Of a stretch of DNA of 64,000 bases, positions 16,649-20,280 are shown piece after piece. Origin of the DNA: Kofleriaceae bacterium. GTDB taxonomy: Bacteria; Myxococcota_A; Polyangia; Haliangiales; Haliangiaceae. Made by a program: the position numbers and the translations under genes. The stretch's first letter is position 1; the number at the start of each line of letters is the position of its first letter. The stretch is taken from positions 1 to 64,000 of the forward strand of contig CBDCCZ010000006.1 in NCBI GenBank assembly GCA_965215005.1, in the 5' to 3' direction. The notes below the pieces were generated by a model that did no database searches, had not been told where the DNA came from, and worked only from the letters and a program-made list of their open reading frames with translations.

Positions 16649-18160
16649 ATGATGCTCGCCAAACGCGCCCTTTCCATCGGCGCCATCGGCGCGGCGCTCG
16701 CGCTCAGTAGCGGCTGCAAAGACGATCACGGCAGCGCCGCCAAGCGCGCTCCCGCAACGCCGCCGCCAACGACGGAAGCGCCGCCCGCAAAACCGTCTCC
16801 TCCATCGCCACCGCCAAGTCCGCTGCCAACTCTGCCCGCGGACCCCGGCGTGCATGAGGGAACCCATCGCTGGTCGGCTCGCTTCGGCGACCTTGGCACC
16901 GACGCTGGTCGCAGCATTGCGACCGATGCCAACGGCAACGTCGCCGTGACTGGCTATTTCGCGGAGCACGTGGAGTTCGCCCCCGGCCACACCGCGACCG
17001 CGGCTGCCTTGGATGCCTACGTTGCCTACTTCTCAGCGCAAGGAGAGCTCTCGTGGGTGAAAACCTTCGGCGGCGACCACGAAGACACCGGCAACGCCAT
17101 CGCGTTCGATCCGGAGGGCAACGTGGTGGTCGCGGGAAACTTCTCCCGGTCCATGCAGCTCGGCGCCACACCAGTCGCCTCGCTCGGTTCCGATGATGCG
17201 TTCGTCCTCAAGCTATCGCCTACGGGCGAGGTCCTGTGGGTGCGACGCTTTGGCGATATCAAGTCAGATGGCGCCAATGGAGTCGCCACCGATGCCCACG
17301 GCAACGTCTATGTCACCGGCTCATTCTCTGGGCTCGTCACCTTCGGCACCACGCAGCTATCGAGCGCGGGCGGCGAAGACGTGTTCGTGCTCGCGCTAAC
17401 GGCGGCCGGCGAGTTGATGTGGGTCGAGCAGTTCGGCGGCCGCTACACCGACTATGGGCAACGCATCGCGGTGGATCCGCAGGGCAGCGTGGTGGTGCTC
17501 GCGGAGTTCACTGGAACCGTCGCGTTCGGCGCTGCTGAGCTCGAGAGCTTGGGCAACCGCGACCTGGCGGTGCTCAAGCTGAGCTCCCGCGGCGAGGTCA
17601 CGTGGGCCGAGAGATTTGGCAGCCCCTTCAACGAGCTCGGGTTGGGGCTCGCCGTCGATCCGGCAGGCAATATCATCATCGCCGGAAGCTTCGACAATCA
17701 GATCTCCTTCGGAGCCATGAAGCTCGTCAGCAAAGGCGAGTCCGACGCGTTCGTCACCAAGCTCAATCCTGCTGGAAAACCGCAGTGGGCGCGCAGCTTC
17801 GGGTCGCGGCGCGAGGATATCGCCCACGGCGCAGCGACGGATGCGTTTGGCAACGTGGTGGTCACCGGCTGGTTCTGGGAGGCGATCGACTTCGGTGGCG
17901 GGTTGCGCGCAAGCGAAGGCAACAAGGACGTATTTCTCCTCAAGCTGAGCCCTGATGGCAACCACCGTTGGTCACGACGCTTCGGCGGCAAGGACCACGA
18001 TCAAGGCCGGGCCGTTGCGGTCGGCCCCTCAGCCGAGGTCGTTGCCACAGGCATCTTCCGTTTCGTGATCGAGCTGGGCGGCAAGCCACTCGAGTCGAAG
18101 AGGGCGGCAAGTGATCGTGCACCACGCCCAGATGTATTCGTGGCGCGCTTCGCGCCGTAG
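16649..18160 (+). CDS. lipoprotein with Pro-rich linker and SBBP-type beta-propeller repeats
   Basis: Lipobox SSGC; about seven repeats of W...FG....D.G..IA.D..GNV.V.G.F. Confidence 0.85.
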   Translation: MMLAKRALSIGAIGAALALSSGCKDDHGSAAKRAPATPPPTTEAPPAKPSPPSPPPSPLPTLPADPGVHEGTHRWSARFGDLGTDAGRSIATDANGNVAVTGYFAEHVEFAPGHTATAAALDAYVAYFSAQGELSWVKTFGGDHEDTGNAIAFDPEGNVVVAGNFSRSMQLGATPVASLGSDDAFVLKLSPTGEVLWVRRFGDIKSDGANGVATDAHGNVYVTGSFSGLVTFGTTQLSSAGGEDVFVLALTAAGELMWVEQFGGRYTDYGQRIAVDPQGSVVVLAEFTGTVAFGAAELESLGNRDLAVLKLSSRGEVTWAERFGSPFNELGLGLAVDPAGNIIIAGSFDNQISFGAMKLVSKGESDAFVTKLNPAGKPQWARSFGSRREDIAHGAATDAFGNVVVTGWFWEAIDFGGGLRASEGNKDVFLLKLSPDGNHRWSRRFGGKDHDQGRAVAVGPSAEVVATGIFRFVIELGGKPLESKRAASDRAPRPDVFVARFAP

Positions 18161-18357
18161 TCAAACGCTACTCGCAAGCGTCGCGATGCGAGCGATGAGC
18201 ACCCGCAGAGATGCTCGAAACAGGCCGTTCGCGGACAAAAAAAACGCGGCAGCGCCGAAAAAACGCCAGGAAAGGACGAATTCGAGCCGAAACAGGCTAT
18301 TCGTTGTCAGTCCCACCCTGTAAAACGCTCTTAGTACTCAACCGTGGAGGGTTGACC

Positions 18358-18627
18358 GTGGCCAAAGCTAAAAAGAAAACTACAACAGCAGCAGCGAAGA
18401 AGAAGACCACCCGGGCGAAGAAAGCCGCTCCCAAGGCACCGACCGAGGTCCTCCTCGTCGGTTCGAAGGTGCGGGCCCAGATCAAGGATTCTGGATTCAA
18501 CACCGGCGGTGATGCAGTCGACGGCCTCAACCTGTGGGTGCACTGGCTCATTGGCCAAGCAACCACTCGCGCCGCCGCAAATGGACGCAAGACGGTTCGC
18601 GCCCACGACTTCATGGCCCCGATGTAA
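18358..18627 (+). CDS. bacterial histone-fold protein with Lys-rich N-terminal tail
   Basis: GGAGG at 18346-18350 then GTG; core LLVGSKVRAQIKDSGFNTGGDAVDGLN...RAAANGRKTVRAHDF carries the histone-fold RKTV...D motif and resembles Leptospira HLp and Bdellovibrio Bd0055 as I recall them. Confidence 0.88.
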   Translation: MAKAKKKTTTAAAKKKTTRAKKAAPKAPTEVLLVGSKVRAQIKDSGFNTGGDAVDGLNLWVHWLIGQATTRAAANGRKTVRAHDFMAPM

Positions 18628-18633
18628 CTTCGC

Positions 18634-18703
18634 TCGGCCTTCGGGTCGAAGACGCCCTGCCGAAGCATCGCTCGCGGTGTTTCGCGCGGGGCGTTTCTCG
18701 TTT
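18634..18703 (+). terminator. double hairpin or intrinsic terminator after the histone gene
   Basis: cUUCGg hairpin 18634-18649, then long GC stem 18651-18696 followed by a T-rich tail. Confidence 0.6.
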
Positions 18704-18804
18704 CGGAGCATAGTGATCGAGTCACAGCCTCGGCTCACCCACATAGCTGCGGCCACAACGCGTTCCTCTCACCACTTGTGCTGGGCTATGCTGGAGCACG
18801 AGCG

Positions 18805-20280
18805 GTGAAAGATGGAGGAGCACGCCTACTCCGAATCGCGTCGCGAGCCAGGACGCGTGAGGAGTTCATCTCGATATTTCGTCGGTTCTGCGATCACGCC
18901 TCGGTTTTCGTGATCACACGCGAGCCCCAAGAGCTGCAGTCGCGACTGCGGCTCTCGATTACTCTCGCCGGCGGACAAGCCATGCTGCAGGGCGAGGTCG
19001 AGGTGCTCGAGCACTTCTCGACCAGCGACAACCGCTTCGGCGCACCCGGCATGCGCCTCGGATTCGTTGCCGCCGATGACGCAACGCGCGCGCTCCTCGA
19101 GTTATTTGCTAGCGATCAGCACGATGAGCTCGCCGCCGAGCCGGGTCGTGGACCGCCGTTGCCGCGACATCTTCGCCCTCCGGCCCGTCCTGGCACCGTG
19201 CCACCGAAGGCCGAGCACCTCGCCACGCTGGCGACTCTCACCACCGCGGAGCCTGTGCACGCCATCGAGGAACCAGAGGATGCGCCCACCGCGGAGCGTG
19301 CACCGGGCCGCCACCCACCATCTCAAGCGCCAACGCACAACCACGGTCTCGCCAGCACTGCTTCCTCACAGTCACCAATCGACAATCGCAACGAGGCTTC
19401 TTTCGCCGACGCGCCACGGCGTGACCAGAGTCGAGAAACTTCCGCCTCATCATCGCAGCCGCCACTGCAGGCAGCGCCAAACCACACTGTGCCGCTGCCC
19501 GTGCAGCTCGAGCCCACTGAGCTGGTTCCCACGTTGTCTGCAGCCCGGCTCACGCGCCGACGCACCCTTCCGCTTGCACTTGCCGCGCTCGCAGCTCTGC
19601 TAACACTGGCCGTCATCGTAGCGCTGTCTCGCTCCGGCGATGAACCCGCAGTACGTGGAGGCGTCGAGTCAGCCGCCGTGGCGACAGAACCAGCTCATGC
19701 GGCCGACTCTGCTCCGCCTACGACGCCTCCGCCTCCCACTGCCGCGACCGTCGCGCCTGTCATCGCTGGTGATGCGCCGGCGGCACGAGCGCCCGCATCA
19801 GGCGCGGTCGCTACCGGTGAGGCAACCGGCGATCCGGCCGCTCGCGACCTGGACCAGCAAACCTGCAGCCTACGCGTCCGCACCTCTCCTAAAGGCGTAC
19901 GCGTTAGCGTCGCAGGCAAGCGCGTTGGCGAGACTCCTCTGCTAGCCGAGTTGCCGTGCGGCCCCCATCGCTTGCAACTCAGCCATCCGCGCTATCAAGA
20001 CACCACACGTGAGCTCGATCTGACCCCAGGCGCACGTGGCGAGCTTTCGCTACGGCTATCACGCCCGACCTTCGTCCTGCGAATCGTCTCGACTCCGAAG
20101 GGCGCCACCGTGATGATCGATGGCAGCAAGGCCGGAGTGACTCCACTGCGCACGCCGATTCGCGGCTTCGAGCGAGCTTCTGTCGTCGTGAAGAAGTCCG
20201 GCTACGCGTCCCATCGCACCAACATCTACGTCAAGAGCGACGAGCACGTCGTCCGCGTCCGGCTGCGGCCGAGCCGCTAG
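18805..20280 (+). CDS. PilZ-like N-terminal domain, Pro-rich linker, TM helix and tandem PEGA domains
   Basis: C-terminal VRTSPKG..V...GK.VGETP and IVSTPKGATV.IDG..AGVTP PEGA motifs; N-terminal EEF....VFV.T..P...PGM.L.F pattern. Confidence 0.75.
   Translation: MKDGGARLLRIASRARTREEFISIFRRFCDHASVFVITREPQELQSRLRLSITLAGGQAMLQGEVEVLEHFSTSDNRFGAPGMRLGFVAADDATRALLELFASDQHDELAAEPGRGPPLPRHLRPPARPGTVPPKAEHLATLATLTTAEPVHAIEEPEDAPTAERAPGRHPPSQAPTHNHGLASTASSQSPIDNRNEASFADAPRRDQSRETSASSSQPPLQAAPNHTVPLPVQLEPTELVPTLSAARLTRRRTLPLALAALAALLTLAVIVALSRSGDEPAVRGGVESAAVATEPAHAADSAPPTTPPPPTAATVAPVIAGDAPAARAPASGAVATGEATGDPAARDLDQQTCSLRVRTSPKGVRVSVAGKRVGETPLLAELPCGPHRLQLSHPRYQDTTRELDLTPGARGELSLRLSRPTFVLRIVSTPKGATVMIDGSKAGVTPLRTPIRGFERASVVVKKSGYASHRTNIYVKSDEHVVRVRLRPSR

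What the first reader, a model, noticed from the sequence alone, without database searches (positions are those of the whole stretch)
18358..18627. Bacterial histone with a eukaryote-like lysine-rich N-terminal tail
Seen: an 89-aa ORF with a strong GGAGG site and its own terminator. The C-terminal ~60 aa (EVLLVGSKVRAQIKDSGFNTGGDAVDGLNLWVHWLIGQATTRAAANGRKTVRAHDF) has the helix-loop pattern and RxTxxxxD motif of a histone fold. The first 28 residues hold 10 Lys and 1 Arg, no acidic residues, and AKKKTT twice. No in-frame ATG/GTG lies between the tail and the fold, so the tail should be translated. Established: the characterised bacterial histones (Bdellovibrio Bd0055/HBb, Leptospira HLp) have this core but no long basic tail; such tails are typical of eukaryotic and some archaeal histones. 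Inference: a tailed histone chromatin protein in a myxobacterium-like cell, possibly regulated by Lys acetylation or Thr phosphorylation.
Basis: partly seen in the sequence, partly recalled or inferred. Interest (0 to 1): 0.93.

Follow-up and report, generated by a model that had tools for sequence, protein, structure and literature searches.

The report
Lysine-tailed face-to-face bacterial histone
This small gene of a myxobacterium encodes a true histone-fold protein of the tetramer-forming "face-to-face" type with a floppy, lysine-rich front tail; such tailed bacterial histones have been catalogued before, but none has been studied at the bench.

Summary
Window 18358-18627 (+) encodes an 89-aa protein: a 28-residue tail (10 Lys, 1 Arg, no acidic residue, AKKKTT twice) followed by a roughly 60-residue histone fold.

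The core matches solved bacterial histones. It is closest to the tetrameric HLp of Leptospira (E 6.4e-12; model TM 0.95, rmsd 0.6 A) and less close to the dimeric HBb (E 1.1e-5). It carries the face-to-face (FtF) signature residues R71 and N75, plus R77, T79 and D84. A four-copy model scored 0.90 against 0.00 for the best control, and it uses R71/N75 in the dimer-dimer contact.

The tail is real. No usable start codon lies downstream of it, and all 119 closest relatives have basic tails of 14-43 residues. Tail composition is conserved (K+R 42%, never more than one acidic residue), while tail sequence is only 48% identical against 79% for the core.

The kind is not new. Schwab et al. 2024 state that H3-like, positively charged tails occur in most bacterial FtF histones, and their data list the Haliangium ochraceum ortholog (D0LYZ1) as face-to-face. 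No tailed bacterial histone has been characterised. DNA binding, abundance and acetylation or phosphorylation of the tail remain untested here.

Verdict: a new member of a known kind, of moderate interest.

The parts
18320..18325 (+). GTAAAA core of a conserved upstream motif (consensus GTGTAAAAG in relatives), 38 nt before the start codon; candidate promoter element
   Evidence: GTAAAA lies 31-45 nt upstream of the start in 46 of 73 upstream regions (72 related loci plus the window; mode 38-40 nt). G at -2 in 42 of 46 and T at -1 in 38 of 46. The sigma-70 consensus scan found no promoter here.
18346..18350 (+). Shine-Dalgarno GGAGG, 7-nt spacer to the GTG start
   Evidence: An SD-like run of 4 nt or more precedes the assigned start in 64 of 72 related loci.
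18358..18627 (+). Coding sequence of the 89-aa tailed FtF-type histone (stop codon included)
18358..18441 (+). Residues 1-28: disordered Lys/Ala/Thr-rich tail, net charge +11
   Evidence: Composition. Mean pLDDT 51-52 for residues 1-20 and below 50 for residues 7-15; no secondary structure before residue 35. Basic tails in 119 of 119 closest relatives.
18442..18624 (+). Residues 29-89: alpha3-truncated histone fold. Helices 35-44, 53-74 and 82-85; DNA-contact equivalents S36, K37, R39, K43, T49, G51, K78, T79; tetramer residues R71 and N75; R77-T79-D84 motif
   Evidence: Residue mapping to HLp uses the alignment and the paper passages.
18647..18700 (+). G+C-rich hairpin followed by an imperfect U-rich run; terminator-like
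   Evidence: z -3.8. Not called by the rule-based scan.

Best explanation
The gene encodes a face-to-face (FtF) member of the alpha3-truncated prokaryotic histone family, in a Kofleriaceae-like myxobacterium.

The roughly 60-residue core should form handshake dimers. Two dimers should join into a closed tetramer through the end of helix 2 and the stub helix 3 (R71, N75), and DNA should bind around the tetramer's rim, as shown for Leptospira HLp.

The 28-residue tail leaves the fold just before the helix-1 'paired ends of helices' DNA contact (S36-K37). It is disordered and carries +11 charge, which amounts to four tails and about +44 per tetramer.

The tail most likely acts as a non-specific electrostatic DNA arm. 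It would raise affinity, neutralise phosphate charge on the wrapped or flanking DNA, and help neighbouring particles pack. Selection would act on its charge and flexibility rather than on its exact sequence.

Shown here: fold, class signature, predicted tetramer, disorder, and conservation of tail composition. Inferred: DNA binding, wrapping, abundance, and what the tail does.
For: Fold:
- PDB sequence search: HLp (9qt0_A) at E 6.4e-12 over query residues 24-85; HBb (8cmp/8fvx) at E 1.1e-5.
- AlphaFold2 model: mean pLDDT 82.1, core blocks 95-98, helices 35-44, 53-74 and 82-85.
- Foldseek best hit: 9qt0_A, target-normalised TM 0.95, rmsd 0.6 A, 53% identity. Next come HBb (0.84-0.88) and archaeal HTkC (0.85).

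Class:
- The published FtF logo residues R48, N52, R54, T56 and D61 (paper passages) correspond to R71, N75, R77, T79 and D84. All five are conserved in at least 90% of the 107 aligned relatives.
- Bacterial dimer histones lack R48 and N52 (paper).
- Four copies of residues 24-89: score 0.90 (runs 0.90, 0.91, 0.90) against 0.00 for the best of 3 controls. The runs agree in at least 96% of contacts, and partner pLDDT is at least 90. The tool's calibration: the mark was reached by 20 of 30 proteins solved as pairs of one chain and by 1 of 23 solved as single chains.
- The second interface uses residues 66-68, 70-71, 74-75, 81, 83 and 86-89.
- The H. ochraceum ortholog P0035 is UniRef100_D0LYZ1, which the source data of Schwab 2024 list as 'Face-to-face'.

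DNA surface: of the 9 HLp DNA-contact residues, 6 are identical here (S36, K37, K43, T49, G51, T79) and 3 are substituted (G35, R39, K78), by the alignment.

Tail:
- No usable downstream start.
- 119 of 119 closest relatives carry tails of 14-43 residues with K+R 0.42 +/- 0.07. There are no acidic residues in 89 tails, one in 30, and more than one in none. Identity to the query is 0.48 in the tail against 0.79 in the core.
- In 80 genome loci found mostly through core matches, my script assigned a start in 72. All 72 had an N-terminal extension of 5-59 residues.

The gene looks like a stand-alone unit: strong SD, downstream hairpin, and neighbours of unrelated families.
Against: - No experiment and no expression data: no RNA run holds the stretch.
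- Pfam and NCBIfam give no hit at E up to 10.
- The tetramer pass may reflect the model's memory of the solved HLp and HTkC tetramers. The tool's calibration was also for two copies, not four.
- The genome also has four HU/IHF-family genes and a ZZ-type histone. This protein therefore need not be the main nucleoid organiser, unlike in Leptospira, which the HLp paper says lacks HU.
- Many Kofleriaceae relatives have much shorter tails: 53 of 72 assigned tails are 10-19 residues, typically with 4-5 Lys and a Gly-rich spacer. A long Lys-rich arm is therefore not required for the family's function.
- The top-120 list came from a word-index search whose words may include tail words, which could favour tailed proteins.
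Confidence: 0.7

Rival explanations
1. The tail is chiefly a regulatory platform. Reversible Lys acetylation and/or Thr phosphorylation would tune DNA binding, and a dedicated reader may recognise it, for example the ZZ domain of the ZZ-type histone in the same genome.
For: - The tail holds 10 Lys and 5 Thr.
- The extreme N-terminus is more conserved than the rest: M-A in 108 of 120, MAKAK in 65 of 120, K at position 5 in 103 of 114.
- A ZZ-type histone is present in the same genome.
- Lys-rich tails of other bacterial nucleoid proteins are reported as acetylation-regulated (PMC11229371, search listing and start of the abstract only).
Against: - No acetyltransferase, deacetylase or kinase gene lies beside the gene.
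- Schwab 2024 considered ZZ-tail binding and judged it unlikely. Their reasons: the eukaryotic binding-pocket residues are not conserved, and only 50% of proteomes with a ZZ histone have a second histone.
- In the phylum sample the ZZ domain is far commoner (113 of 401 genomes) than close orthologs of this histone (6 of 401 at E <= 1e-23).
- Thr is replaced by Ala, Pro, Ser or Gly in many relatives.
Confidence: 0.1
2. It works as a dimer that bends or coats DNA, like Bdellovibrio HBb, and does not form a face-to-face tetramer.
For: HBb is a clear relative (E 1.1e-5; target-normalised TM 0.84-0.88). The tetramer is only a prediction.
Against: - It is closer to HLp than to HBb in sequence and in fold.
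- R71 and N75, which bacterial dimer histones lack according to the paper, are present and conserved in at least 90% of relatives.
- The model places these residues in a confident second interface.
- The ortholog D0LYZ1 was classed as FtF by others.
Confidence: 0.1
3. It is a histone-fold protein with a role other than general chromatin packing, such as a low-abundance regulator or a binder of RNA or another polyanion, with the tail serving that role.
For: - No expression or abundance data.
- The genome has other nucleoid proteins.
- Schwab 2024 caution that not all prokaryotic histone-fold proteins need be genome organisers.
Against: - DNA-contact residues of HLp are largely kept.
- The gene has a strong SD and is single-copy.
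- It sits in a conserved position across the order: SBBP gene upstream in 53 of 80 loci, PEGA gene downstream in 48 of 80.
- The Leptospira and Bdellovibrio relatives are abundant nucleoid proteins according to the papers.
Confidence: 0.08
4. The tail is an annotation artefact and is not translated.
For: The start is GTG rather than ATG. The frame is also open upstream to 18211.
Against: - The next in-frame start is at residue 38, inside helix 1.
- GGAGG sits 7 nt before the GTG.
- Basic tails with the same M-A-K start are found in all close relatives, most with ATG starts and SD-like sites.
Confidence: 0.02

Closest known systems
HLp, the face-to-face histone of Leptospira perolatii (PDB 9QT0, 9QT1, 9QT2; PMC12701072)
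   Same: - Alpha3-truncated histone fold.
- 53% identity over the fold; target-normalised TM 0.95.
- Tetramer residues R and N are kept; 6 of 9 DNA-contact residues are identical.
- The predicted tetramer uses the same region.
   Different: - HLp was characterised as a 63-aa protein with only about six disordered N-terminal residues. This protein has a 28-residue tail of +11 charge.
- Leptospira is reported to lack HU. This genome has four HU/IHF genes.
Bacterial FtF histones with positively charged tails, as surveyed by Schwab et al. 2024 (PMC11390915), including Haliangium ochraceum D0LYZ1
   Same: - Same class and the same phylum.
- D0LYZ1 (P0035, 86 aa) is 77% identical over 72% of the query and has a similar Lys/Thr/Ala tail.
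- The paper states that tails are common, mostly positive and H3-like.
   Different: - Only a different species and tail sequence.
[quoted passage not shown] Within this clade the first residues are conserved.
- Supplementary Figs 13, 19 and 20 of that paper, which show the tails, are PDFs I could not read.
HBb (Bd0055), the bacterial dimer histone of Bdellovibrio bacteriovorus (PDB 8CMP, 8FVX, 9EZZ)
   Same: Same alpha3-truncated fold and RKT-type L2 loop.
   Different: - According to the paper, HBb lacks the R48 and N52 equivalents and is a dimer that bends DNA.
- It has no long tail.
- Its match is weaker (E 1.1e-5, 39-41% identity).
Eukaryotic core-histone and Asgard archaeal histone N-terminal tails
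   Same: Disordered, basic and N-terminal to a histone fold, emerging next to the DNA-contact surface (paper introductions).
   Different: - No sequence homology of the tail was tested or claimed.
- The core is the short alpha3-truncated type, not the nucleosomal type. Eukaryotic histones match only at Foldseek E above 0.02.
- No modification machinery is shown here.
Lys/Ala/Pro-rich tails on other bacterial DNA-binding proteins (actinobacterial HU such as HupS, mycobacterial Ku PAKKA repeats, H1-like AlgP and DdbA)
   Same: Low-complexity Lys-rich appendages that modulate DNA binding (PMC11229371, PMC3553676, PMC9239181, PMC3643593; search listing and start of the abstracts only).
   Different: Those tails are attached to folds other than the histone fold and are mostly C-terminal. 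The likeness is one of working principle, not family membership.

Membership tests
Alpha3-truncated prokaryotic histones (Schwab et al. 2024) | Three-helix histone fold with alpha3 cut to 3-4 residues and a shortened alpha2 | tested here: met
   The model has helices 35-44, 53-74 and 82-85, so alpha3 is 4 residues. Best structural matches are HLp, HBb and HTkC.
Alpha3-truncated prokaryotic histones (Schwab et al. 2024) | RxTxxxxD motif in loop 2 / alpha3 | tested here: met
   R77, T79 and D84, each conserved in at least 90% of 107 relatives.
Face-to-face (FtF) histones | Conserved R48 and N52 (FtF logo numbering), which make the dimer-dimer contact | tested here: met
   R71 and N75 align to them via N52/R54/T56/D61 = N75/R77/T79/D84 (paper passages).
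Face-to-face (FtF) histones | Confidently predicted torus-shaped homotetramer (the criterion used to define the class) | tested here: met
   Four copies scored 0.90 against 0.00 for the best of 3 controls, and the second interface includes residues 70-71 and 74-75. Like complexes are solved (HLp, HTkC), so the pass shows likeness and may come from memory. The torus geometry itself was not inspected.
Face-to-face (FtF) histones | Tetramer in solution and DNA wrapping | not testable with these tools
   Needs purified protein.
Bacterial dimer histones (HBb type) | Absence of R48 and N52; no multimer beyond the dimer | tested here: not met
   R71 and N75 are present and conserved, and a tetramer is predicted.
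Pfam histone families (CBFD_NFYB_HMF, DUF1931) | Match above the Pfam gathering score | tested here: not met
   No Pfam and no NCBIfam families at E up to 10. The PDB depositors' names for HLp and HBb use these labels, so the models simply do not reach this subfamily.
Histones with regulated (modified) tails | Post-translational modification of tail Lys, Ser or Thr with an effect on chromatin | not testable with these tools
   No proteomic data. No modifying enzyme is encoded beside the gene.
Major nucleoid-associated protein | High cellular abundance and genome-wide binding | not testable with these tools
   No RNA holder was listed for the stretch.

The most novel reading that the evidence does not exclude
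The tail is a genuine bacterial counterpart of a modifiable histone tail. After removal of Met1 it would present a conserved Ala-Lys-Ala-Lys-Lys N-terminus followed by Lys/Thr clusters. These would be reversibly acetylated or phosphorylated, in a phylum rich in eukaryote-like signalling proteins (that richness is recalled, not tested here). The tail would be read by the ZZ zinc-finger of the ZZ-type histone encoded in the same genome. Together this would make a two-component writer/reader chromatin system in bacteria that arose independently of eukaryotes.
Probability: 0.06. Interest if true: 0.85.

Novelty: new member of a known kind. Interest (0 to 1): 0.4.

Why it matters
Bacterial histones were recognised as chromatin proteins only in 2023-2025, and the two studied at the bench are essentially tail-less. 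The tailed myxobacterial and bdellovibrio-like branch is large: 1287 relatives at E <= 0.001.

Its tails keep their charge and their first residues while drifting in sequence, which is the pattern expected of a working part. A culturable relative, Haliangium ochraceum, carries an ortholog. That makes a direct question testable: what does a basic histone tail do in a cell without nucleosomes?

This particular gene adds one more member and a few details (a conserved N-terminus, conserved gene neighbourhood, a conserved upstream motif). It does not add a new kind of system.

Tried and rejected
- Pfam and NCBIfam scans of the protein: no family at E up to 10.
- Sigma-70 promoter scan of 18000-18900: none found. 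The terminator rule found only two minus-strand sites at 18243-18268, upstream of the gene.
- RNA evidence: no RNA holder listed. The stretch is held only by two runs of one sample in one study, possibly the source sample. I did not lay reads.
- Earlier findings of this scan, by sequence: nothing to show.
It was repeated with the single protein.
- Searching the ZZ domain in the 80 genomes behind the loci failed on a 50-locus limit. I used the phylum sample instead.
  - That sample gave no sign that the ZZ histone depends on this histone. ZZ was found in 113 of 401 genomes, including all 6 other genomes of the window's family group.
  - Close orthologs of this histone were seen in 6 of 401. Of those 6, G305 had no ZZ match.
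- Many of the weaker matches (61 of 401 genomes at E <= 1e-5) lie directly beside a ZZ-domain match on the same contig. They are the histone halves of ZZ histones, so 61 overstates the spread of this subfamily.
- First neighbour clustering with stop-to-stop frames was spoiled by shadow frames in G+C-rich DNA. It was replaced by tblastn with the two neighbouring proteins.
- Literature:
  - Searches for the H. ochraceum ortholog by accession found no paper.
  - Searches for bacterial FtF histone work since 2025 found only the HLp paper and an archaeal HTkC preprint.
  - No paper characterising a tailed bacterial histone turned up.
- The source-data zip of Schwab 2024 holds no occurrence of 'Haliangium', 'Kofleriaceae', 'Haliangiales', 'Myxococcota' or 'tail'. 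It lists only accessions with categories.

Full report
**1. The observation**

Window 18358-18627 on the + strand is an open frame of 89 codons beginning with GTG. GGAGG lies at 18346-18350, seven bases before the start.

Residues 1-28 (MAKAKKKTTTAAAKKKTTRAKKAAPKAP) hold 10 Lys, 1 Arg, 9 Ala, 5 Thr and 2 Pro, with no acidic residue. AKKKTT occurs twice. The two copies are written with different synonymous codons (read), so they are not a fresh DNA duplication.

The frame is open upstream to an ATG at 18211. That ATG has no GGAGG/GAGG-type run in the 16 nt before it and no support from homologs. An in-frame TTG at 18352 sits one base after the GGAGG. The next in-frame start-like codon downstream is GTG at residue 38, inside the first helix. 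The tail must therefore be translated if the fold is to be whole.

Downstream, the rule-based scan called no terminator on this strand. However, 18630-18716 folds into a strong G+C-rich hairpin (-51.3 kcal/mol, z -3.8, none of 200 shuffles as stable) followed by an imperfect U-rich run.

The overlapping minus-strand frames at 18297-18725 and 18331-18756 have no support. All homology lies on the + strand.

**2. What the core is**

Pfam and NCBIfam gave nothing. A sequence search of the PDB did:
- The face-to-face histone HLp of Leptospira perolatii (9qt0_A) matched at E 6.4e-12 over residues 24-85.
- The Bdellovibrio dimer histone HBb (8cmp, 8fvx) matched at E 1.1e-5.

An AlphaFold2 model built on 107 relatives has mean pLDDT 82.1. 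The core blocks score 95-98, with helices at 35-44, 53-74 and 82-85, which is a histone fold with a stub third helix. The first 20 residues score about 51-52 and have no secondary structure.

Foldseek against the PDB ranks the matches as follows:
- HLp first: target-normalised TM 0.95, rmsd 0.6 A, 53% identity.
- HBb next (0.84-0.88), then archaeal HTkC (0.85).
- Eukaryotic, Asgard and other archaeal nucleosomal histones follow only at E above 0.02.

**3. Which class**

Schwab et al. 2024 (PMC11390915; passages read) define face-to-face (FtF) histones by a predicted torus tetramer. They name R48 and N52 of their logo as the dimer-dimer residues, which 'bacterial dimer' histones lack.

Using their N52/R54/T56/D61 register, the equivalents here are R71, N75, R77, T79 and D84. 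All five are among the ten columns conserved in at least 90% of the 107 aligned relatives.

A four-copy prediction of residues 24-89 gave these results:
- Scores of 0.90, 0.91 and 0.90, against 0.00 for the best of three controls.
- The runs agree in at least 96% of contacts, and partner pLDDT is at least 90.
- The tool's calibration: the mark was reached by 20 of 30 proteins solved as pairs of one chain and by 1 of 23 solved as single chains. It held two copies, not four.
- Besides the handshake dimer, a second interface uses residues 66-68, 70-71, 74-75, 81, 83 and 86-89, which includes R71 and N75.

Like tetramers are solved (HLp, HTkC). The pass therefore shows likeness and may be memory; it does not show that this protein forms a tetramer.

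The Haliangium ochraceum ortholog gives independent support. P0035 (86 aa, 77% identical over 72% of the query) is UniRef100_D0LYZ1. That accession is labelled 'Face-to-face' in the paper's source data.

Of the nine HLp residues that touch DNA in the crystals, six are identical here (S36, K37, K43, T49, G51, T79). Three are changed (G35, R39, K78), two of them to basic residues (alignment).

**4. The tail in relatives**

The word-index search found 1287 proteins at E <= 0.001 among 1899 candidates, and 120 were listed. Among the 119 listed proteins other than the window's own:
- Every one has an N-terminal extension, 14-43 residues long (mean 22.6).
- K+R makes up 0.42 +/- 0.07, A+P 0.31 and S+T 0.14.
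- 89 tails have no acidic residue, 30 have one, and none has more.
- Identity to the query averages 0.48 in the tail against 0.79 in the core.

The very start is better kept. M-A opens 108 of 120, MAKAK opens 65 of 120, and K is at position 5 in 103 of 114. The six proteins with other beginnings mostly show an internal M-A-K a few residues in, which suggests over-called starts.

One caveat: the word index may favour tailed proteins. Two less biased views agree in kind but not in length.

First, the exhaustive search of 50%-identity representatives found 271 proteins at E <= 0.001. Of the 149 I could align, 94 have an extension of 10 residues or more and 64 of those have net charge of at least +4. 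The tail-less ones are largely two-fold 'doublet' forms.

Second, the scan of one genome per species gave 160 relatives, of which the best 80 were kept, matched mostly through the core.
- My script assigned a start in 72 of 80.
- 64 of those 72 starts have an SD-like run.
- All 72 have an extension: 18 are 20 residues or longer (one, L063 at 59, is doubtful), 53 are 10-19, and one is 5.
- The common Kofleriaceae form is short: M-A-K-A-K-K-G-K, then a Gly-rich spacer.
- Of the eight loci without an assigned start, seven show a Met or Val followed by a basic stretch in the printed frame, and one (L109) does not.

So a basic N-terminal arm is general in this branch. The long Lys/Thr/Ala version seen here is one of two styles. 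It is matched or exceeded elsewhere, for example by P0095 (102 aa) and P0154 (49-residue tail with 20 K+R).

**5. Whose gene and in what setting**

The window is contig 6 of a 6.2-Mb, 62-contig genome that is 92.8% complete. This histone is present once.

By record title, the 80 loci break down as follows:
- 50 carry myxobacterial labels: Kofleriaceae 35, Haliangium/Haliangiales 4, Polyangia/Polyangiaceae 2, Myxococcales/Myxococcota 9.
- 18 carry old delta-/Proteobacteria labels.
- 5 carry Bdellovibrio-type labels.
- 7 carry others: Planctomycetota 2, Elusimicrobiota, Chloroflexota, Acidobacteriota, Brocadiaceae and one unnamed.

Two genomes that the genome search places in the window's own family group coincide by contig coordinates with L034 and with L048, and L048 is labelled Kofleriaceae. 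Kofleriaceae belongs to Haliangiales, Myxococcota.

In an even sample of 401 genomes of the phylum, close orthologs (E <= 1e-23) were seen in 6, counting the window's own. The wider count of 61 includes histone halves of ZZ histones.

The flanking genes belong to unrelated families: an SBBP beta-propeller protein upstream and a PEGA-domain protein downstream. Their positions are nonetheless conserved. The SBBP gene is upstream on the same strand in 53 of 80 loci, and the PEGA gene is downstream in 48 of 80. This argues for vertical descent, not a mobile gene.

The genome also has four HU/IHF-family genes and a ZZ-type histone.

**6. How it most likely works**

Shown here: the fold, the class signature, a confident predicted tetramer, tail disorder, and selection on tail charge.

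Inferred: the protein forms a closed tetramer that binds DNA around its rim as HLp does. The four tails each leave the fold just before the S36-K37 DNA contact and each carry +11. They would lie on the wrapped or neighbouring DNA, raising affinity, screening phosphate charge and favouring compaction.

Two observations fit a charge-and-reach function better than a sequence-specific one. Tail sequence drifts at constant composition, and a sister group uses short Lys-plus-Gly tails. I put this reading at about 0.7.

The rivals are:
- a mainly regulatory, modified tail (0.1);
- an HBb-like dimer (0.1);
- a non-chromatin role (0.08);
- an untranslated tail (0.02).

**7. Comparison with what is known, and novelty**

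HLp was studied as a 63-residue form, and HBb chains are 64-66 residues.

But the tailed subfamily is in print at survey level. Schwab et al. 2024 write the following:
- FtF histones occur in Myxococcota.
[quoted passage not shown] They even weighed, and doubted, binding of such tails by the bacterial ZZ domain. Their Supplementary Figs 13, 19 and 20 are PDFs I could not open and may show these very tails.

The HLp paper repeats that bacterial FtF histones occur in Myxococcota. I found no paper that characterises a tailed bacterial histone.

This is therefore a new member of a known kind. Within the clade I add three details:
- a conserved M-A-K-A-K start;
- two tail styles;
- a conserved gene neighbourhood and upstream motif.

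**8. Verdict**

The identity as a tailed FtF histone of a myxobacterium is well supported. The chromatin role and tail regulation are untested, and the novelty is modest. Interest 0.4.

Noticed in passing
L002:1219-1776 (= G000 contig 42, 237230-237787, + strand): A second histone gene in the same genome, of 185 aa: an N-terminal Cys/His zinc-finger region and a C-terminal alpha3-type histone fold, i.e. a ZZ-type histone. Cys10, Cys13, Cys26, Cys31, Cys41, His49 and His55 fall exactly on the published profile positions, and the eighth ligand is Cys45 against profile position 43. Pfam gave no hit. The ZZ domain was found in 113 of 401 genomes of the phylum sample.
   Followed up: partly
window 16649-18160 and 18778-20280; loci L034-L113: Conserved gene order around the histone. 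An SBBP beta-propeller protein lies upstream on the same strand in 53 of 80 related loci, and a PEGA-domain protein lies downstream in 48 of 80. No functional link is evident.
   Followed up: partly
window 18318-18328; upstream regions of L034-L113: A conserved motif (consensus GTGTAAAAG; CTGTAAAAC in the window) lies 31-45 nt before the start codon in 46 of 73 upstream regions, with a weaker CTT about 20 nt further upstream. It does not fit the sigma-70 consensus scan. It may be the promoter's -10 region or a regulator site.
   Followed up: partly
P0123-P0129, P0138, P0141 and others: The best-scoring 50%-identity representatives are 118-132-aa proteins with two histone folds in tandem and no tail. 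These are 'doublets' closely related to this singlet (52% identity per fold).
   Followed up: no
P0134, P0149, P0159, P0162, P0200, P0216, P0221, P0228, P0271: Relatives, most of them with two histone folds, whose N-termini look like secretion signal peptides: a hydrophobic stretch ending in Ala-rich sites, followed by a shared A-R-S/A-S-K/R-P motif just before the fold. If real, these would be exported histone-fold proteins.
   Followed up: no
L043, L047-L054, L056, L058-L060, L065-L073 and many others: Many Kofleriaceae genomes carry a short-tail variant: M-A-K-A-K-K-G-K followed by a run of Gly/Ser/Ala and Pro-Thr/Lys, 12-21 residues with 4-5 basic residues. Their cores read EMLLV(S/A)SKV and GYV(G/A)WL, in place of the query's EVLLVGSKV and LWVHWL.
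   Followed up: partly
L034:1-1689 (= G245 contig 14; open frame of 925 aa): In one close relative the upstream SBBP gene's reading frame runs into the histone frame with no stop between them. A GTG with GGAGG still precedes the histone. This may be chance, an assembly indel or a read-through form.
   Followed up: no
window 18238-18268: Two A-runs (8 and 6 A on the + strand) flank a short G+C stem between the SBBP gene and the histone gene. The scan reads them as two terminator-like sites on the minus strand, where no gene arrives. Related loci show A- or T-runs at the same place.
   Followed up: no
G000 contigs 58, 28, 38 (L114-L117): Four HU/IHF-family (PF00216) genes, all above the Pfam cut-off, coexist with the two histone genes.
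   Followed up: no
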